Virus record (IMG/VR): IMGVR_UViG_3300009666_000002
Source of the DNA: a virus
DNA: 15,783 bases
Direction: 5' to 3' (one strand)
Below are positions 1-15,783 of the stretch, piece by piece (the stretch's first letter is position 1; each line of letters starts with the position of its first letter). Under the pieces are notes generated by a model that made no database searches, was not told where the DNA came from, and saw only the letters and a list, made by a program, of their open reading frames with translations. The translations under genes and the position numbers were made by a program.

Positions 1-93
1 AGGCCCCGGAGGGCGTCGGCGAAGAACTTGTCAGGCCTGTAAGCCTCGGTCTCGTTCACAGAATCGGCGAAGGTACACGCCCTCGATACTCCA
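1..93. repeat. Left copy of an exact 93-bp terminal direct repeat (identical to 15691..15783). It marks a circular or circularly permuted genome with a 15,690-bp unit length.
   Basis: Direct comparison: bases 1..93 (aggccccggagggcgtcggcgaag...cctcgatactcca) match 15691..15783 exactly. The repeat lies inside a coding frame that continues across the junction. Confidence 0.95.
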
Positions 94-4994: not shown

Positions 4995-7583
4995 CTAATC
5001 CGGACAATTGAACCCCCTCGAATATCCCTGTTGCTCCAGCATCCCGATAGCCATCACTGCCTTATCCTTCGGCCACTCCTTCTGCACCTTCATCAACTGC
5101 TTGACCGTCGGGACTTGGCCTCCTCCGATGTCCAAGTAGGCGGGGATGCTCAAGCCGAAGATGGTATTCGCTTCGGTCTTTTCGGGGACCGCCGCCACGT
5201 TTGGCTTCGGGGGCCGTGGAGGTGAGCATACTGTCAATCTGTCGATACTGTCACTACAGTCACCGGTGTCACCACTGTCACCTAGTTTGGGCTCCTTTTT
5301 AGTAACATGATTCCCACAAGAAGATGATTTATCTTCTGATCTAGTGTTACGTTTATCCTCTCGATCCTCAGTGTTACGAGTGACAGTATGGACAGTATCG
5401 ACATTATCGACGGTATAGACAGTTCCGACATTAAGAACGACCTTAACCGTAGATTCCCCTCTGGGGTTCTGGATCTCACAATATTCGACGGTCCCATCCC
5501 CGGCCATGGTATCGAGGTATTCCTGAAGCTCTTTCGCCTTGATCTTCACATGCCTGGATATTTCCCGCTTGGTAGAGACGCCGCCATGCCTCTTCAAAAA
5601 CGCTATGATCCGGTCGATAATGTTCCGCTCCAGGTCCCGGCCAACCATGTCATAGACGGCCATGGCCATGGGCTGATAGTACTCGTCCACAAGCCGACAA
5701 GCCTCGATGACGTACTCGAGCCGGATAGGTCGTCTCCATGCCGGATCGAAGTCAGAAGATCCCAGCTCGAAGAGCATCGCCAGTTTAGCCACCAACGGAA
5801 CCAACCTGCTGTGAATCTGCATCTCGTTGGCGTCGTCTCTCCTCTCGATCTCCCTTGCCCGCTGCTTTTGCCACCGGGTCCAGTACTCTGCCGCCTCTTT
5901 ACTGAAATTAAGCTGTTGTCTCACCATCTCGGAGACGGTTTTTGACATGGCAGCCAATTGTCCCTTGACGACGAGCTCCAGCTCGGAGTTCATCGCCTCG
6001 CCTTCCTCCAGGGGAAGCCATCGCTCTTTGGGTCTCCTCGGGAAGTGATAGATGAACCTCGCCATGAAGCCGCTGAGGGTGTCGTTGATCTCGGTGTTAG
6101 CCGCTAACGAGGAGTCGGTCGTCGCCCACAGGACGTTGAGATAGGGGTCGTCCACGTTAAACTCGTTTTTACTCTTCGTCCGCCTGTTGGTCCTCAGCTT
6201 CCGGTGAATGGGTCGGCAATCGTACAACTGCATCAGCGAATCTTTGAAGCCCCTCATGTAGTCCCGTCTCATGGTCGACAAGATTCCGGCAGCCTCGTCT
6301 CTCACCCACGGGGCATGGGGGCATTCATCGAGGTGCTCGATGAAGGCTTCCGGCGAGAACTCTGTCGGGACTGCATTGATCGCCGTCCCCGGTCGGTGAT
6401 CGTTGAGAAGAGACTCGGTGATGTCGGCGACGGTGCTCTTGCGGCTGAGGCTCGATCTTCCGGCTATGAAGATGTAGAGGTTTGGATAGACCGGCCCCTG
6501 TCGCAGCTTGACCCATATTTTCTTATCGGCAATCACAGCCAGTTGATAGAGCCCCCCAGCGAGCCAGTAATCGGGGTAGGCGTCCGATACGTCTCGCCCG
6601 TATGCGATATAGCGGGTTAGATAGTGGTTCCCAGGCAGGTTAAGCTCGAATTTTGGGCCGTGATCCATCTTCCTGGAGGCTAGCTCCTCCTCGGTGATCG
6701 GCTTTGCCTCCTCGATCCCACCGGTGTTCCCCTTCGGCGCCGCTGCTGATTGGATCGCTCTTCTGATTGTGGTGTCTCTGTAGTCGTCGGCACCCCTCTC
6801 TCTCCATTTCTCCTGTGGGCTGGAGTCCATCAAAGATCTGATCTCGGACTCGGAGAACCCCTCTTCCCACAGCCTGGCGCAGAGGTGGAACTCGTGGTCC
6901 GATCGATCGCCGACACTCGCTGGAGAATAGTATCTATCCTTAAACTTCGGGTCGTCATCGCAGAGGGCTGCGAATCTCTCGGCCAGATCATCGCCCACTT
7001 TTCCCCCCTCGCCGTGGGTGGTGGGGGCCTCCTGGGAGGCGCTCCATATCCGGCGGTGTACTCGATCGAGTGCCTCGTCGAAGTCCTCTATATCAGAGGT
7101 TGCGCTGTCCAGCCTGTGGCCGGTAAAGGTGAGATACCGACCCCCGTCGTACATCTCGATATTACCCTTTTTGCGTCCCTCTCGCCGGAGCTTCCCATAT
7201 CCCAGGACTCGGAGCCCCTCACCGCTTGGAGAGATCTCAACGTAGCTTCCCAGCTCCTCGACGATCTCCAAGGCCCAGGGCTCGATCTTTGCCCCATTGA
7301 CGCAGTGGTCTAGGTCGACCCCGGCGAGAGCCTCCATAGCGTTGAGAGAGAGCCCTATACCGTCGAAGCCGCCCTTCTGATAGGCCTGGACTGCCTGGAC
7401 AAATGTCATCCATTCTGCGGGATCGTGGGCGTCGATCTTCTTCCCGTCTTCGTTAAATGGCGGTTTGGTCCATTTTCCATTGACGAGGGTATATTTCCAC
7501 AGAATCCAGCCTTCTACCGCCCTCAGTGCATCGGGTACATTTCGATGCCAGACGTCGAGGGCGATGGGTCGAGGGGCGTTCAT
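4995..7583 (-). CDS. Replication protein: archaeo-eukaryotic primase (prim-pol) N-terminal domain, PriCT-like domain, DUF3987/D5-like helicase-type NTPase, winged helix and a repetitive C-terminal linker
   Basis: 862 aa. AEP motifs are present: GVDLDHC (DxD), YVEISPSGEGLRV (SGxGxH-type motif with R in place of H) and IEMYDGGRYLTFTGH. There is a PriCT-like DRSDHEFHLCARLWEEGFSESEI. The DUF3987-like core has the P-loop-like IAGRSSLSRKST. A wHTH-like IIAFLKRHGGVSTKREISRHV follows. The tail contains TV-x and GD-x tripeptide repeats. Confidence 0.85.
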   Translation of the reverse strand: MNAPRPIALDVWHRNVPDALRAVEGWILWKYTLVNGKWTKPPFNEDGKKIDAHDPAEWMTFVQAVQAYQKGGFDGIGLSLNAMEALAGVDLDHCVNGAKIEPWALEIVEELGSYVEISPSGEGLRVLGYGKLRREGRKKGNIEMYDGGRYLTFTGHRLDSATSDIEDFDEALDRVHRRIWSASQEAPTTHGEGGKVGDDLAERFAALCDDDPKFKDRYYSPASVGDRSDHEFHLCARLWEEGFSESEIRSLMDSSPQEKWRERGADDYRDTTIRRAIQSAAAPKGNTGGIEEAKPITEEELASRKMDHGPKFELNLPGNHYLTRYIAYGRDVSDAYPDYWLAGGLYQLAVIADKKIWVKLRQGPVYPNLYIFIAGRSSLSRKSTVADITESLLNDHRPGTAINAVPTEFSPEAFIEHLDECPHAPWVRDEAAGILSTMRRDYMRGFKDSLMQLYDCRPIHRKLRTNRRTKSKNEFNVDDPYLNVLWATTDSSLAANTEINDTLSGFMARFIYHFPRRPKERWLPLEEGEAMNSELELVVKGQLAAMSKTVSEMVRQQLNFSKEAAEYWTRWQKQRAREIERRDDANEMQIHSRLVPLVAKLAMLFELGSSDFDPAWRRPIRLEYVIEACRLVDEYYQPMAMAVYDMVGRDLERNIIDRIIAFLKRHGGVSTKREISRHVKIKAKELQEYLDTMAGDGTVEYCEIQNPRGESTVKVVLNVGTVYTVDNVDTVHTVTRNTEDREDKRNTRSEDKSSSCGNHVTKKEPKLGDSGDTGDCSDSIDRLTVCSPPRPPKPNVAAVPEKTEANTIFGLSIPAYLDIGGGQVPTVKQLMKVQKEWPKDKAVMAIGMLEQQGYSRGFNCPD
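5227..5279. repeat. Array A: six units of about 9 bp ending in (C)TGTC (for example GATACTGTC), inverted relative to array B
   Basis: The sequence reads catactgtc aatctgtc gatactgtc actacagtc accggtgtc accactgtc. It lies inside the replication gene, where it encodes GD-x repeats. Confidence 0.8.
5382..5435. repeat. Array B: six tandem 9-bp units, consensus GACAGTATC, the reverse complement of the array A units
   Basis: The sequence reads gacagtatg gacagtatc gacattatc gacggtata gacagttcc gacattaag. A 102-bp AT-rich core (5280..5381) separates it from array A. That core contains AGTGTTACG twice, at 5343 and 5370. Confidence 0.8.
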
Positions 7584-7859: not shown

Positions 7860-8321
7860 CTATTCATCTACCGACTTCTTCTTTCGCGCAGCGGCTTTTG
7901 CCTCAGCCACCATTTTCTGACGCTCCTCATACTGACGTTTAGCCTCATCCTGCTGCCTCCTGGCCAGCTCAGCGTATGGGGCGAATTGTGTCACAAGATG
8001 TCGTTTTTCGTCTTCAGAGACTTTGCCTTCCAGGACAGCCATCAGCGAGATGACACAACTGTTAAAATTAGTCTGCGCAATCTCGGTCTGATTCAACAGC
8101 GAAGTGTATGTTCCTAGGATGCTATCATTCTGCTCCTGGAGATTTTTTATTCTAGCTCGATACTCGTCGATTCTGTCGCCGTATTCCAAGGTGTCCAACA
8201 TCAGCTCCCTCGCCGCCGTTGACATCGATACCTCATTTTTGTCGGCCATGCTCAGAACTCTAGCATACAACCAGTCCGGAACTCGGATCACGAGCTTTCG
8301 CTCCATCGTATCGGGAGACAT
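7860..8321 (-). CDS. Ribbon-helix-helix (CopG/Arc-like) DNA-binding protein with a coiled-coil C-terminal domain
   Basis: The N-terminus KLVIRVPDWLYARVLSMADKNEVSMSTAARELMLDTLE fits the RHH beta-strand/helix/helix pattern. It is paralogous to the adjacent 142-aa protein (MERKLVIRVP versus MEKRLNVRVP; SLMAVLEGK versus CIPVLEGK). Confidence 0.7.
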   Translation of the reverse strand: MSPDTMERKLVIRVPDWLYARVLSMADKNEVSMSTAARELMLDTLEYGDRIDEYRARIKNLQEQNDSILGTYTSLLNQTEIAQTNFNSCVISLMAVLEGKVSEDEKRHLVTQFAPYAELARRQQDEAKRQYEERQKMVAEAKAAARKKKSVDE

Positions 8322-8355: not shown

Positions 8356-8775
8356 TTATTCGTCCACGGTACCAGGCGTGTTTTTACTGGCTATTTCGGT
8401 TATGATCTTGATGCGATTGAGATATTTGACTAGCTCTCCGGCTTCCCAGCACTCTGGTTTTCCTTCCAACACGGGAATGCATGCATTCAAAATAGTGATG
8501 ATCATCCGATTGAATGTCGCGACTGTATCGTACATGGAGTCAAGCGACTTAAGAAGCGTCTTATTCGCCTCAAAAAGCCTTTCTTTATCCCCGAGGAGCT
8601 TCGTTATGTCTCTGTCGTACATCTCCTTCTCGGGCCCAAATTCTAGGTAGTCCTCCACGATTTCACGGACGATGGTTCCAACTGAGGTATTTTCCTTGAC
8701 TGCTATGTCTACGACTTGATCATAGATGTCCTTCGGAACGCGGACGTTCAGCCTTTTCTCCATCACCACTGGCAT
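8356..8775 (-). CDS. Ribbon-helix-helix DNA-binding protein, paralogue of 7860..8321
   Basis: RHH pattern RLNVRVPKDIYDQVVDIAVKENTSVGTIVREIVEDYLE. The ORF track begins at a TTG (8784). I prefer the ATG at 8775 because TATAAATA lies exactly 22 nt upstream of it. Confidence 0.7.
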   Translation of the reverse strand: MPVVMEKRLNVRVPKDIYDQVVDIAVKENTSVGTIVREIVEDYLEFGPEKEMYDRDITKLLGDKERLFEANKTLLKSLDSMYDTVATFNRMIITILNACIPVLEGKPECWEAGELVKYLNRIKIITEIASKNTPGTVDE

Positions 8776-8797
8776 GTGTCCCAATTGTGCCCCATTA

Positions 8798-9091: not shown

Positions 9092-9313
9092 TTAATCTCT
9101 CATGATTGCCTTGAGGAGATCTATTCGGGCTTTCTGTGTTTCGAAAAGAATTCTCCACTTTACGTGAGTTAAGCTATTATCGCTCGCAGGTATAGTCTCT
9201 TTCCAGTTTGCGGCGTACTCTTGGAGCTTCAAGTCGATGTCTGTTGCTATTTCTAAAGCCCACGTTTCGCGAAGCGACTGAAATGTCTCATTTAATTCAT
9301 CCAAGTTGCTCAT
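9092..9313 (-). CDS. Small hypothetical protein (73 aa from the ATG at 9313; the track ORF extends to a TTG at 9352), low GC
   Basis: MSNLDELNETFQSLRETWALEIA..., predicted helical. TTTAAATA (9333..9340) lies 19 nt upstream of this ATG. No family recognised. Confidence 0.5.
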   Translation of the reverse strand: MSNLDELNETFQSLRETWALEIATDIDLKLQEYAANWKETIPASDNSLTHVKWRILFETQKARIDLLKAIMRD

Positions 9314-9332
9314 AAGATAACATTCTCCTGTA

Positions 9333-9340
9333 TATTTAAA
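9333..9340 (-). promoter_or_regulatory. Archaeal-type TATA box (TTTAAATA) upstream of the 73-aa ORF
   Basis: Exact consensus octamer. The 19-nt spacing to the ATG is slightly short for a strictly leaderless transcript. Confidence 0.4.
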
Positions 9341-9560
9341 TAGATTACTCAAACAAGAACGTGAAAGGCAATCGCTTGTTCTCCGATCAATTCACCAAGC
9401 ACGACGCTATCTCAGAAGCCGCTAAAATCGAGCGCTGAACGCAAACTGATTATTTTATATAATCTCTGTAATCATCATTATAACGCGTATATATTTAATA
9501 ATGTATTTAGAATACTAAAATTGATAGAATATAAATAGGCGAAAGCTATTTAATCGTTAC

Positions 9561-9587
9561 ATGTACCATGGTATATGTACGATGGTA
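9561..9587. repeat. Tandem 13-bp direct repeat ATGTAC(C/G)ATGGTA x2, containing the palindrome TACCATGGTA, at the edge of an AT-rich non-coding tract
   Basis: The sequence reads atgtaccatggta t atgtacgatggta. It lies in the 320-bp ORF-free region 9353..9671. Confidence 0.7.
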
Positions 9588-9671
9588 CCGTGGTGAGTAA
9601 AGCCTTCTCGAAAAGGATGAGGCCGCCTATGGGCGGGTGGGACGAAGTAAAGAAGGGTTCACCATGAGCAC

Positions 9672-10274
9672 TTATTTATTTTCGAAGATATAATCAATTG
9701 TTACAGCAAAACACGACTCTATCTTTTGATAGTGGATACTATCTCCACGATATTTTTGAGTTATTGTCCCTGCAATAAAGTCAGCTGCTTGGATGCACGG
9801 ATATTGCCTAGAATCAAGCGGCTCCAGTTTTAATGAGCACCTGTCCAATTTTTGTCCAAGGACGTCTTCATCTATCGTATACATGGACTTATCGGGGCAA
9901 ACGTTCACAGTTCCGTTTAGATTACAGTTTATAATTATTTCAAATAATAGTTTTTTAAACATGTGATCGTGTATGTGTTGTGCGCTATCGTTTATCGTCA
10001 AACTGGATTTACGTTTATGCAGTATTATATAGGCTAAATTGCTATCTGTTTTCGCGATGCATTCAAGAATACGCCTTTTGATCGCATCATTCGAGTTGTT
10101 AAATTTCAGTTCAGAAGTCTGTTTATATTTTTTAGATAATCTATTCATTCTAATACGTTTAATGCATTTATCAATCGCAGACGAGTCTTTTGTTATGATC
10201 GCAGCCAACACAAAAAAGTCGGATGCGTTTTGGCCGAATCCTAAATCACCAGACTCATCGATATAAACATCCAT
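9672..10274 (-). CDS. DUF3800-like protein (function unknown), low-GC cargo gene
   Basis: The N-terminal MDVYIDESGDLGF and C-terminal SRQYPCIQAADFIAGTI match my recollection of the DUF3800 signature (N-terminal DESG, C-terminal Q-x-AD). GC content is far below the core genes. GGGGG lies 6 nt upstream of the ATG. Confidence 0.6.
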   Translation of the reverse strand: MDVYIDESGDLGFGQNASDFFVLAAIITKDSSAIDKCIKRIRMNRLSKKYKQTSELKFNNSNDAIKRRILECIAKTDSNLAYIILHKRKSSLTINDSAQHIHDHMFKKLLFEIIINCNLNGTVNVCPDKSMYTIDEDVLGQKLDRCSLKLEPLDSRQYPCIQAADFIAGTITQKYRGDSIHYQKIESCFAVTIDYIFENK

Positions 10275-10308
10275 TTTTTTCCCCCGGAAAGTTATTTACA
10301 GCATCAAA

Positions 10309-12507: not shown

Positions 12508-12951
12508 CTACTTCTCCAGCTCGCCGCTTTCCAGGCAGTCTTTGATGTACTGCTGGACGGTCCGGTTTTTGTATCCTACCTGCTGAGCTATTGCCTGTCG
12601 GTTCCGCTCTCCGCCTCTCCACAGCTCTTTGATCTTCTCTTGTGTCGCGGTGTCCTCGGATAGCCTCTGAATTGTGGGTTTAACCTCGGGTTTAACCTCG
12701 GGTTTAACGTCTTGTTTAACCGGTTTAACGTCCTGTTTAACTTCCGGTTTAACCCCCAGCCTGCTGTCAATCAGCTTTATAAGCTCTTTTTTATCTAATA
12801 CGATTAGGCCTGTACCTTCAGGGATTGCGACGTTAAAATATTGGTTTAACGCATCCCTCACGATATCGCTTTTGGACTTCTCGGAGCGTTTAACCTCTTC
12901 GTCGATCAAGGTCTCCAGCTCCGCCGAGATCTTGACCCCTAAGAATGGCAT
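12508..12951 (-). CDS. RHH (N-terminal), VKP-rich tandem repeat linker and C-terminal HTH DNA-binding protein
   Basis: The N-terminus is LGVKISAELETLIDEEVKRSEKSKSDIVRDALNQYF (RHH pattern). The central part is VKPEVKQDVKPVKQDVKPEVKPEVKP. The C-terminus is NRQAIAQQVGYKNRTVQQYIKDCL (HTH-like). Confidence 0.7.
   Translation of the reverse strand: MPFLGVKISAELETLIDEEVKRSEKSKSDIVRDALNQYFNVAIPEGTGLIVLDKKELIKLIDSRLGVKPEVKQDVKPVKQDVKPEVKPEVKPTIQRLSEDTATQEKIKELWRGGERNRQAIAQQVGYKNRTVQQYIKDCLESGELEK
12676..12756. repeat. Seven tandem units (six of 12 bp, one of 9 bp), each containing the heptad GTTTAAC; coding (VKPx repeats)
   Basis: The sequence reads gggtttaacctc gggtttaacctc gggtttaacgtc ttgtttaac cggtttaacgtc ctgtttaacttc cggtttaacccc. 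Three more GTTTAAC copies follow at 12844, 12887 and 12952. Confidence 0.9.
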
Positions 12952-15623: not shown

Positions 15624-15783
15624 TCAGCTCGGAGCACAGGTCAGAACGCAGAGACATTCAGGATCGATGACCTTCGCGCCGTAGCAATGGAGGCCCCGGA
15701 GGGCGTCGGCGAAGAACTTGTCAGGCCTGTAAGCCTCGGTCTCGTTCACAGAATCGGCGAAGGTACACGCCCTCGATACTCCA
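15624..15783 (-). CDS. Major capsid protein, C-terminal end. 15624..15690 holds the unique last 21 codons plus the stop; 15691..15783 duplicates 1..93.
   Basis: The frame continues from base 1 across the junction: ...FADALRGL-HCYGAKVIDPECLCVLTCAPS-stop (TGA, complement of 15624..15626). 788 + 67 nt = 855 nt = 284 codons plus a stop. Confidence 0.85.
   Translation of the reverse strand, partial: GVSRACTFADSVNETEAYRPDKFFADALRGLHCYGAKVIDPECLCVLTCAPS
15691..15783. repeat. Right copy of the exact 93-bp terminal direct repeat
   Basis: Identical to 1..93. Confidence 0.95.

What the first reader, a model, noticed from the sequence alone, without database searches (positions are those of the whole stretch)
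5227..5435. Two inverted six-unit arrays with 9-bp periodicity flank an AT-rich core inside the replication gene: putative origin of replication
Array A (units ending CTGTC; one unit is exactly GATACTGTC) and array B (six units, GACAGTATC consensus) are reverse complements of each other. They bracket a 102-bp AT-rich segment that contains AGTGTTACG twice.

The whole structure sits in frame in a low-complexity linker of the prim-pol/helicase protein, between the winged-helix domain and a short C-terminal domain. Local GC is much lower than in the rest of the gene. Origins embedded in the initiator gene are well known, for example ori-lambda within gene O. The iteron / AT-rich / iteron layout is classic origin architecture.
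Basis: partly seen in the sequence, partly recalled or inferred. Interest (0 to 1): 0.65.

Follow-up and report, generated by a model that had tools for sequence, protein, structure and literature searches.

The report
Translated replication origin inside rep gene
Two mirror-image sets of six 9-base repeats around an AT-rich core, lying inside the replication gene of a small circular Methanothrix-type archaeal virus-like element, are very probably its replication origin. The same layout, with lineage-specific repeat sequences, occurs in nearly all relatives, sometimes outside the gene.

Summary
Six GAC units sit at exact 9-bp spacing (5382-5435). Six inverted GTC units (5227-5282) have one 8-bp step. 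Between them is a 99-nt core of 38% GC, the lowest in the 56% GC rep gene.

They encode a disordered linker right after a winged-helix domain of a primase / AAA+ helicase protein.

The decisive evidence is comparative. About 50 non-redundant relatives (40-86% identity) carry the same inverted 9-bp arrays at the same position. The unit sequence differs between lineages, and array 2 is always the reverse complement of array 1. In several relatives the gene stops before or inside the arrays, which persist as non-coding DNA. Synonymous variation is suppressed there, and unit sequence tracks the adjacent winged helix. Unit order does not matter for hairpin stability.

The design matches origins of staphylococcal pathogenicity islands, whose primase domain is homologous. 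Here it is read through in frame, as in phage lambda gene O.

The origin reading is supported but inferred; no binding or replication data exist. The rival AT-rich tract at 9.35-9.67 kb is a strain-specific DUF3800 module carrying a known RNA motif.

The parts
4995..7583 (-). rep gene (862 aa). Domains in order: N-terminal primase-polymerase, DUF3987 AAA+ helicase-like domain, winged helix, disordered linker holding the arrays, small C-terminal domain.
   Evidence: ORF and translation. Pfam DUF3987, E 7e-25. PDB profile hit to SaPI5 PriRep5 7OLA, primase part, E 2.7e-35. AF2 model of residues 290-862. Foldseek hits to MCM, ORC/Cdc6 and RuvB.
5433..5621 (-). Coding region of the winged-helix domain (residues about 655-717), the proposed iteron reader. 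It ends exactly where array B begins.
   Evidence: AF2 secondary structure H-S-H-H-S-wing-S with pLDDT 80-90. Foldseek matches of this part to Stf76, TFE-alpha and the pNOB8 centromere-binding protein. Its divergence tracks iteron divergence, partial rho 0.61.
5382..5435 (+). Array B, the rep-proximal iteron set. Six units of 9 bp, consensus GACAGTATC on the + strand (ACTGTC on the coding strand).
   Evidence: Conserved in the close clade. Synonymous diversity 0.14 against 0.23-0.36 elsewhere.
5283..5381 (.). AT-rich spacer (38% GC), the proposed unwinding region. It contains AGTGTTACG at 5343 and 5370, inside a 24-27-nt direct repeat 5328-5378. An inverted partial copy, GTAACA, lies at 5303-5308.
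   Evidence: Motifs are invariant or nearly so in the clade alignment. Synonymous diversity 0.14, with minima of 0.07. The spacer is lower in GC than the flanks in 42 of 42 related loci.
5227..5282 (+). Array A, the distal iteron set. Six units ending CTGTC / ACTGTC, inverted relative to array B. The outermost step is 8 bp, so the last GACAGT is read in another frame (LTV).
   Evidence: Synonymous diversity 0.06 with amino-acid diversity 0.34.
5022..5171 (-). Coding region of the small folded C-terminal domain (residues 805-854) that follows the translated origin.
   Evidence: AF2 pLDDT 94-96. Conserved in the clade, and also attached to other helicase modules in P0106 and P0117.

Best explanation
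The segment 5227-5435 is the element's replication origin, of the self-loading helicase-initiator type.

Shown:
- The element is a 15.69-kb circle. Its Rep protein has a primase-polymerase domain, an AAA+ (DUF3987) helicase-like domain and a C-terminal winged helix.
- Immediately 3' of the winged-helix codons lie two oppositely oriented sets of six 9-bp iterons around an AT-rich spacer.
- This module is conserved family-wide. The iteron sequences are lineage-specific and co-vary between the two sets and with the winged helix.

Inferred:
- Each winged helix of a Rep hexamer reads one iteron, so 6 + 6 units position two hexamers on either side of the spacer.
- The spacer is then melted, and the primase domain starts synthesis.

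In this lineage the reading frame runs through the origin, as ori-lambda lies in gene O. The 9-bp (three-codon) units therefore appear in the protein as tripeptide repeats, (T/N-V-x)6 and (G/S-D-x)5-6, in a disordered linker. That linker's sequence is dictated mainly by the DNA function.
For: 1. Family-wide conservation. 52 of 55 non-redundant homologous loci have inverted period-9 arrays starting 50-90 nt after residue 700. Controls: 48/50 at the real site against 3/183 in control windows.

2. Covariation between the arrays. There are 15 distinct unit consensus sequences, for example TACTGTCA, CAAAGTAGC, CAACGTCGC, TAATGTCA, TAAAGTCA and TTTAGT. In every locus rc(array 2) matches array 1 at 6-9 of 9 positions. 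A class-level permutation reached the observed value 0 times in 10,000.

3. Independence from coding.
- In L078 and L089 the arrays lie in intergenic DNA just after the rep stop.
- In L096 and L059 another frame is used and a stop falls inside array 1.
- In L052 a stop precedes the arrays.
- In the window the outermost unit of array A is read in a shifted frame, yet GACAGT is kept.

4. In the close clade, synonymous diversity is 0.06-0.14 in arrays and spacer against 0.23-0.36 elsewhere. Amino-acid diversity is 0.20-0.34 against 0.08-0.11.

5. Iteron distance correlates with winged-helix distance (rho 0.68). The partial correlation, given the adjacent helicase segment, is 0.61 (0 of 2000 permutations). 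The reverse partial is 0.08.

6. The modal unit number is six in both arrays.

7. Spacer GC is 0.375 against 0.523 in the flanks, and lower in 42 of 42 loci.

8. The fold is AAA+ plus winged helix, like MCM and Orc1/Cdc6. The primase domain is homologous to SaPI5 PriRep5. SaPI Reps bind oppositely oriented iterons flanking an AT-rich centre just downstream of rep (PMC9371898).

9. Unit order is irrelevant to hairpin stability (mean z -0.21, n = 27). This favours repeated protein sites over a specific stem.
Against: - There are no binding, melting, replication or marker-frequency data. Origin function is inferred by analogy and comparative genomics.
- GC skew gives no signal.
- The spacer is AT-enriched, but it is the AT-richest 30-nt spot of the neighbourhood in only 4 of 42 loci. 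In most relatives it is only about 40 nt.
- A 9-bp pitch is unusual for classical iterons.
- The winged-helix/iteron correlation could reflect physical linkage (co-inheritance of adjacent DNA) rather than recognition.
- The helicase domain (DUF3987) is not the same family as in the SaPI Reps with solved structures. Only the primase part matched by sequence.
- One distant bacterial-phage DUF3987 primase has no such arrays.
- A loose hairpin of the two arrays is energetically possible (z = -3.4).
Confidence: 0.75

Rival explanations
1. A structured origin or structured nucleic acid. The two arrays pair into a long stem-loop, as a DNA cruciform, an ssDNA hairpin or an mRNA hairpin. The structure, not repeated protein sites, would be the functional unit. 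The model is the 100-nt stem-loop downstream of orf904 that plasmid pRN1 needs for replication.
For: - The arrays are inverted, and the transcript region folds better than shuffles (-71.3 against -56.9 kcal/mol, z = -3.4).
- Covariation between the arrays is also what a stem would show.
- There is a pRN1 precedent for a stem-loop origin right after a primase-helicase gene (PMC4234260).
- The innermost units of both arrays often share a distinct variant, GTAGA.
Against: - There is no register-specific pairing. Mirror-register identity is 0.71, other registers 0.68, and within-array identity 0.70-0.76.
- Permuting the order of array-2 units leaves the MFE unchanged (mean z -0.21; 2 of 27 below -1.64).
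- The alifold covariation term is +1.01, that is, none.
- Strict 9-bp periodicity with a conserved core and free flanks is not needed for a stem.
- Arms are only 70-80% complementary with 40-100-nt loops, which is poor for cruciform extrusion (established knowledge).
Confidence: 0.1
2. The arrays are Rep-binding sites with a role other than initiation. Candidates are copy-number control (handcuffing), autoregulation or termination of rep expression, or a partition site. The true origin would lie elsewhere.
For: The same comparative evidence for protein-bound repeats linked to the winged helix applies. Iterons in plasmids serve both initiation and control (established knowledge). The element also encodes three RHH proteins.
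Against: - No other conserved repeat or AT-rich candidate exists. The 9.3-9.7 kb tract is absent from all relatives.
- The 9.1-kb relatives keep only rep, the arrays and head genes.
- The layout of two inverted sets around an AT-enriched spacer right after a helicase-initiator gene is the origin layout in SaPIs.
Confidence: 0.08
3. The arrays are the packaging initiation (pac or cos) site, bound by the small terminase. The small-terminase gene starts 283 bp downstream of array A.
For: The order is rep, then terS, terL and portal, and the arrays lie just upstream of the packaging genes. Pac and cos sites often contain repeated terminase-binding boxes near terS (established knowledge). A divergent large terminase also lies downstream in L045.
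Against: - The array position is fixed relative to the winged-helix codons, not to terS. It is more than 1 kb away in L045.
- In the L001 type, TerS is only 36% identical while Rep is 86% identical and the iterons are unchanged.
- Arrays persist where no terminase follows. L034 is an integrase-bearing island in a 141-kb contig. In L062 an S-layer gene follows directly.
- Iterons co-vary with the Rep winged helix.
Confidence: 0.04
4. The region is an ordinary low-complexity protein linker. The repeats would be selected, or drift, at the protein level, and the inverted arrangement would be incidental.
For: The region is translated and predicted disordered. Tripeptide repeats are common in linkers.
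Against: - Amino-acid sequence is poorly conserved while synonymous sites are constrained.
- The arrays persist out of frame or outside the ORF.
- Two different peptide repeats, such as NVA/TLA, NVS/DTL, TNV/DIS and VIK/FND, always correspond to reverse-complementary DNA.
Confidence: 0.03

Closest known systems
SaPI / PICI Pri-Rep-ori replicons of Staphylococcus aureus (Rep1, PriRep5; PMC9371898 and the work it cites)
   Same: - The initiator is itself a hexameric helicase with a C-terminal winged helix.
- Short iterons lie immediately 3' of the winged-helix coding end, in two sets of opposite orientation around an AT-rich centre.
- The origin is lineage-specific, and loading of two hexamers has been proposed.
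- The N-terminal primase domain is homologous (7OLA, E 2.7e-35).
   Different: - Here the units are 9 bp at strict 9-bp pitch and modally 6 + 6. SaPIs have 5-6-nt iterons, 6-12 in total.
- The helicase domain is DUF3987 / AAA+ with MCM- and Orc-like structural neighbours, not the SF3 module of PriRep5.
- The origin is usually translated in frame, followed by a further domain.
- The hosts are archaea (Methanotrichaceae).
ori-lambda inside gene O of phage lambda and lambdoid phages (established knowledge)
   Same: The origin is embedded in the initiator gene. The iterons are translated as an inter-domain linker, and an AT-rich region is adjacent. The DNA-binding domain and its iterons travel together as a specificity module.
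   Different: Lambda has four direct 19-bp iterons, each with internal dyad symmetry, and the AT-rich region lies on one side. O is not a helicase; it recruits DnaB through P. No sequence or fold relationship was tested or expected.
pRN1 ORF904 and its downstream stem-loop origin (PMC4234260)
   Same: It is an archaeal plasmid whose primase-polymerase / helicase / winged-helix protein is followed at once by an inverted-repeat element needed for replication. That element's sequence varies between relatives.
   Different: In pRN1 the integrity of a roughly 100-nt stem matters, and no specific Rep binding was found. Here the arms are periodic 9-bp units with no register-specific pairing.
SV40 large T antigen and papillomavirus E1 origins, and archaeal oriC with inverted ORB elements bound by Orc1/Cdc6 (established knowledge; 2V1U and 2QBY among the Foldseek hits)
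   Same: Inverted short recognition elements flank an easily melted segment. AAA+ initiators use a separate DNA-binding domain to assemble two oppositely oriented rings or complexes.
   Different: The site number and spacing differ, as do the DNA-binding folds (T antigen and E1 origin-binding domains). In archaeal oriC, Orc1 loads a separate MCM, whereas here the initiator and the helicase are presumably one protein.

Membership tests
SaPI-type self-loading helicase-initiator origin (works-like and partial homology) | Initiator combines a hexameric helicase/ATPase with a C-terminal winged-helix DNA-binding domain | tested here: met
   The AF2 model shows an AAA+ core plus a winged helix at residues about 655-717. 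Foldseek finds MCM, Cdc6/Orc1 and RuvB, plus winged-helix proteins. Pfam finds DUF3987. Hexamer formation and helicase activity were not tested.
SaPI-type self-loading helicase-initiator origin (works-like and partial homology) | Iterons directly 3' of the winged-helix coding end, in two sets of opposite orientation | tested here: met
   for the window; for 52 of 55 relatives.
SaPI-type self-loading helicase-initiator origin (works-like and partial homology) | AT-rich region between the two iteron sets | tested here: met
   38% GC against 56% for the gene, and the lowest 99-nt window of the gene. The spacer is lower than the flanks in 42 of 42 loci.
SaPI-type self-loading helicase-initiator origin (works-like and partial homology) | Sequence homology of Rep to SaPI Reps | tested here: inconclusive
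   Only the primase domain matches PriRep5 (7OLA, residues 12-292, E 2.7e-35). The helicase and C-terminal parts gave no sequence hit. Foldseek's best hits were MCM and ORC, not 7OLA.
SaPI-type self-loading helicase-initiator origin (works-like and partial homology) | Rep binds its cognate iterons specifically and melts the AT-rich region; the fragment supports replication | not testable with these tools
   Only indirect support exists: covariation of iteron sequence with the winged helix.
Lambda-type origin inside the initiator gene | Origin lies within, and is translated as part of, the initiator ORF | tested here: met
   The read-through is conserved in most relatives, with folded domains downstream.
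Lambda-type origin inside the initiator gene | Direct array of dyad-symmetric iterons with the AT-rich region on one side; initiator recruits a separate helicase | tested here: not met
   Here two inverted arrays flank the AT-rich segment, and the initiator carries its own AAA+ domain.
pRN1-type stem-loop origin | A specific long stem whose base pairing is maintained by compensatory change | tested here: not met
   There is no preferred register. Unit-order permutation gives mean z -0.21. The alifold covariation term is +1.01. A loose hairpin is not excluded.
Phage pac/cos site | Site co-varies with, and is positioned relative to, the small terminase; genome ends map there | tested here: not met
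   TerS is 36% identical while the iterons are unchanged. Arrays are present without a downstream terminase in L034 and L062. Ends were not mappable.
Known RNA families (Rfam 15) | Match at gathering score in 5227-5435 | tested here: not met
   The only Rfam hit in the window is DUF3800-X at 9591-9664.

The most novel reading that the evidence does not exclude
The 6 + 6 iterons at a three-codon (9-bp) pitch may be a physical template for one-step self-loading of two AAA+ Rep hexamers. One winged helix would sit on each iteron, and the two rings would face each other across a spacer of about 40-100 bp. That would make this an ORC-independent, MCM-like double-hexamer loading system in archaeal viruses and plasmids.

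The winged helix is encoded immediately upstream of its own sites, and the ORF runs through them. Coupled transcription-translation would therefore deliver the nascent reader domain onto the origin in cis. The tripeptide-repeat linker would then be a protein sequence written by a DNA function, and the reading frame through an origin a selected feature that lets new C-terminal domains (zinc ribbon, PolA-like, radical SAM) be added downstream.
Probability: 0.3. Interest if true: 0.8.

Novelty: new variant of a known kind. Interest (0 to 1): 0.62.

Why it matters
Replication origins of archaeal viruses and plasmids are almost unknown. None has been proposed for mobile elements of Methanotrichaceae, the main acetate-using methanogens of digesters and wetlands.

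This finding gives a precise and testable origin, with about 15 natural specificity variants of an iteron / winged-helix pair. It links archaeal elements to the SaPI-type self-loading helicase design.

It also explains an otherwise puzzling protein feature. The paired tripeptide repeats (NVA...TLA, NVS...DTL, TVx...DSx) in dozens of DUF3987 proteins are translated iterons. Annotators could use them to find origins directly from protein sequences.

The 6 + 6 geometry offers a simple substrate for structural work on double-hexamer loading.

Tried and rejected
- **GC skew.** Cumulative GC skew falls almost monotonically because nearly all genes are on one strand, so it gives no origin signal.
- **Public records.** Megablast of the whole window against phage and plasmid collections found only a 205-nt match, an RHH gene of a Methanothrix harundinacea plasmid. 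tblastn of Rep against these collections found only distant primase-domain hits. No annotated relative exists.
- **'No terminase downstream' as a general argument against a pac site.** This was weakened when Pfam found a divergent Terminase_6N downstream in L045. The argument now rests on TerS divergence, on L034 and L062, and on position.
- **Hairpin hypothesis.** It was tested three ways and found no specific support, but a loose hairpin is not excluded.
- **Bacterial phage check.** The Stenotrophomonas phage Jojan60, with a distant DUF3987 primase, has no arrays at the gene's 3' end, so the feature is not universal to DUF3987.
- **Population variation.** Copies of the same Rep from other samples were identical in this region, so they were uninformative.
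- **Literature.** Searches for DUF3987 origins, Methanothrix or Methanosaeta viruses and origins in primase-helicase genes found no description of this feature.
- **RNA and tRNA scans.** Rfam and tRNA scans found nothing in the region.
Full report
**What is in the window**

The window has identical 93-bp ends, so it is a complete circle of 15,690 bp. Contigs of 15.7-15.8 kb from other samples carry the identical Rep.

Almost all genes are on the minus strand. In order, they are:
- two RHH proteins;
- an 862-aa Rep (4995-7583);
- an HTH protein placed like a small terminase;
- a large terminase;
- an SPP1-type portal;
- a scaffold protein;
- a major head protein that spans the junction of the circle;
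- a head-tail adaptor;
- a minor head protein.

A low-GC accessory block follows. The hosts are Methanotrichaceae. Relatives occur in Ca. Methanocrinis alkalitolerans and in Methanotrichaceae MAGs, and database names say Methanothrix.

**The observation**

- Array B has GAC at 5382, 5391, 5400, 5409, 5418 and 5427.
- Array A has GTC at 5233, 5241, 5250, 5259, 5268 and 5277. That is six units each, with one 8-bp step in array A.
- Tandem Repeats Finder reports period-9 arrays with consensus units GACAGTATC and ACTGTCACC.
- The arms are 72-94% complementary in several registers.
- The 99 nt between the arrays are 38% GC against 56% for the gene, and hold the lowest-GC window of the gene.
- AGTGTTACG occurs twice, inside a 24-27-nt direct repeat.
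- A detector for inverted period-9 arrays fires once in 77 windows of this genome, at this site.

**Protein context**

On the coding strand, array B reads NVG-TVY-TVD-NVD-TVH-TVT and array A reads GDS-GDT-GDC-SDS-IDR. An AlphaFold model of residues 290-862 (pLDDT 79.9) has four parts:
- an AAA+ core;
- a canonical winged helix at residues about 655-717;
- a disordered stretch at 721-803, which is exactly the arrays, the spacer and a proline-rich piece;
- a confident small C-terminal domain at 805-854.

Foldseek's best PDB matches are MCM subunits, ORC/Cdc6 and RuvB, all AAA+ proteins with a winged helix. The winged helix alone matches Stf76, TFE-alpha and a pNOB8 centromere-binding protein. 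A profile search of PDB sequences matches the N-terminal 12-292 to the primase domain of SaPI5 PriRep5 (7OLA, E 2.7e-35). Pfam sees only DUF3987.

**Relatives**

Protein and locus searches gave 13 viral, 79 metagenomic and 4 genomic loci at 40-86% identity.

- In the close clade the arrays align base for base. Long invariant blocks include synonymous positions.
- Across the whole set, nearly every Rep tail shows two tripeptide-repeat arrays just after the winged helix. Examples are NVA...TLA, NVS...DTL, TNV...DIS, VIK...FND and KVx...DKx.
- At the DNA level these are always a period-9 array followed by its reverse complement. This holds in 52 of 55 non-redundant loci.
- In a control run, the detector fired at 48 of 50 real sites. 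It fired in 0/55 and 0/53 upstream windows and in 2/40 and 1/35 downstream windows.

**Covariation**

The unit consensus differs between lineages. There are 15 distinct array-1 consensus sequences, including TACTGTCA, CAAAGTAGC, CAACGTCGC, CAACGTATC, TAATGTCA, TAAAGTCA, TTTAGTCAG and TAACGTAGA. In every locus rc(array 2) matches array 1 at 6-9 of 9 positions.

Similarity over the seven non-anchor columns is 0.58 for a locus's own pair and 0.39 for other classes. No class-level permutation out of 10,000 reached the observed value.

**The arrays do not depend on being translated**

- In L078 and L089 rep stops first, and the arrays lie in intergenic DNA, still at about a 9-bp pitch.
- In L096 and L059 the array is entered in another frame, and a TAG inside a unit ends the ORF.
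- In L052 a TAA precedes the arrays.
- In the window the last unit of array A is out of phase by one base. It is read as LTV, yet GACAGT is retained. Two relatives restore the 9-bp step with an extra T.
- Within the close clade (13 sequences), pairwise synonymous diversity is 0.14 in array B, 0.14 in the spacer and 0.06 in array A, against 0.23-0.36 elsewhere. Amino-acid diversity is 0.20-0.34 against 0.08-0.11 in the helicase and winged helix.

This is the signature of a DNA-level constraint overlying a tolerant linker.

**Iterons or a stem?**

The region folds better than shuffles (z = -3.4), as any inverted repeat would. But pairing is not register-specific.
- Unit identity within an array is 0.76 and 0.70. 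Between arrays it is 0.71 in the mirror register and 0.68 in the other registers.
- Permuting the order of array-2 units does not change the predicted stability (mean z -0.21, n = 27).
- RNAalifold finds no covariation in the close clade.

So the units behave as interchangeable copies of a consensus, that is, as repeated protein sites. A loose hairpin, as in the pRN1 origin, cannot be excluded.

**Who reads them?**

Iteron distance correlates with winged-helix distance (rho 0.68). Controlling for the adjacent helicase segment, the correlation is 0.61 (0 of 2000 permutations). The reverse partial is 0.08.

Residues at the end of helix 2 and the start of helix 3 sort by iteron class:
- RHV-KIK with ACTGTC;
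- RDV-KIK with GTAGC;
- RAT-RLT with AATGTCA;
- RTL or RAI with CAACGTC.

Physical linkage of the winged-helix codons and the arrays is a caveat.

The arrays do not follow the packaging module. L001-type elements have a TerS only 36% identical and a portal 48% identical, yet Rep is 86% identical and the iterons are the same. Arrays are also present in an integrase-bearing island (L034) and where an S-layer gene follows rep (L062).

**Geometry**

The modal unit number is six in both arrays (26 and 20 of 49 loci by a strict chain count). The distance between the innermost units is modally 40 nt, and 104 nt in the window clade. The spacer is lower in GC than its flanks in 42 of 42 loci (0.375 against 0.523). 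It is the AT-richest local spot in only 4 of 42.

**Interpretation**

The layout is a helicase-initiator with a C-terminal winged helix. Oppositely oriented iterons sit right after the winged-helix codons, around an AT-rich centre. [quoted passage not shown] The primase domains are homologous.

I therefore read 5227-5435 as the origin. The reading frame running through it parallels ori-lambda in gene O. That each of six winged helices reads one unit, and that two hexamers are positioned, is inference.

The 9.35-9.67 kb tract has no homologue in any relative, including complete smaller genomes. It contains an Rfam DUF3800-X RNA (9591-9664, 75 bits) beside a DUF3800 gene. It is a strain-specific accessory module. 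GC skew is uninformative.

**Novelty**

No annotated phage or plasmid record carries this Rep. Literature searches found no description of the arrays. A distant bacterial-phage DUF3987 primase lacks them.

The kind of origin is known. What is new:
- the strict three-codon pitch;
- the 6 + 6 design;
- the in-frame translation;
- the archaeal hosts;
- the set of natural specificity variants.

Noticed in passing
window 1-93 and 15691-15783; whole window: The first and last 93 bases are identical, so the window is a complete circle of 15,690 bp. A 284-aa major head protein gene (phrog_267, E 2e-58) spans the junction, from circle position 15624 to 788 on the minus strand. The ORF list misses it for that reason.
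   Followed up: yes
whole window; related loci L015, L016 and L020: The element encodes replication genes plus a full head and packaging module: small-terminase-like protein, large terminase, portal, scaffold, major head protein, minor head protein and head-tail adaptor Ad1. No tail, baseplate, fibre, lysis or integrase genes were recognised. Relatives with the same Rep form units of only about 9.1 kb. From memory, this resembles capsid-forming PICI satellites that borrow only tails, but here in Methanotrichaceae archaea. If true, that would be notable in itself.
   Followed up: partly
window 9591-9664 (+) and 9672-10274 (-): There is a strong Rfam match to the DUF3800-X RNA motif (75 bits against a gathering score of 38). 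The 9300-10300 segment has no homologue in any relative.
   Followed up: partly
window 12676-12754, inside ORF 12508-12951 (-): A 12-nt tandem repeat (GGGTTTAACCTC, about 6.8 copies) encodes VKPE/VKQD repeats in an RHH (CopG-type) protein. This gene gave the only nucleotide match to a public plasmid (Methanothrix harundinacea 6Ac, NC_016637, 86% over 205 nt).
   Followed up: no
proteins P0030, P0033, P0106 and P0117; loci L028/L030 and L049: Rep is mosaic. The same primase-polymerase domain (64-86% identity) is joined to other helicase modules (D5_N/PF08706, PF27228). The window's small C-terminal domain recurs on those proteins. In other clades the domain after the translated origin is a zinc ribbon, a radical-SAM domain or a PolA-like polymerase. 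P0030 has paired GVHGVHGG repeats that may be an analogous translated array.
   Followed up: no
window 5303-5308, 5343-5351 and 5370-5378; alignment A2 columns 183-259: Inside the spacer of the window clade, CGTAACACT (coding strand) occurs twice directly, and an inverted GTGTTAC (CATGTTAC in the window) follows. All are invariant or nearly so, including at synonymous positions. This second motif set is specific to the clade with the long (104-nt) spacer. Its reader is unknown; a second factor or a priming site are possibilities.
   Followed up: partly
window 7860-8321 (-) and 8356-8784 (-): Two paralogous RHH-type proteins sit just upstream of rep. One weakly matches the ORF56 plasmid copy-control family of pRN1 (E 0.0012), echoing the orf56/orf904 operon layout of pRN plasmids.
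   Followed up: no
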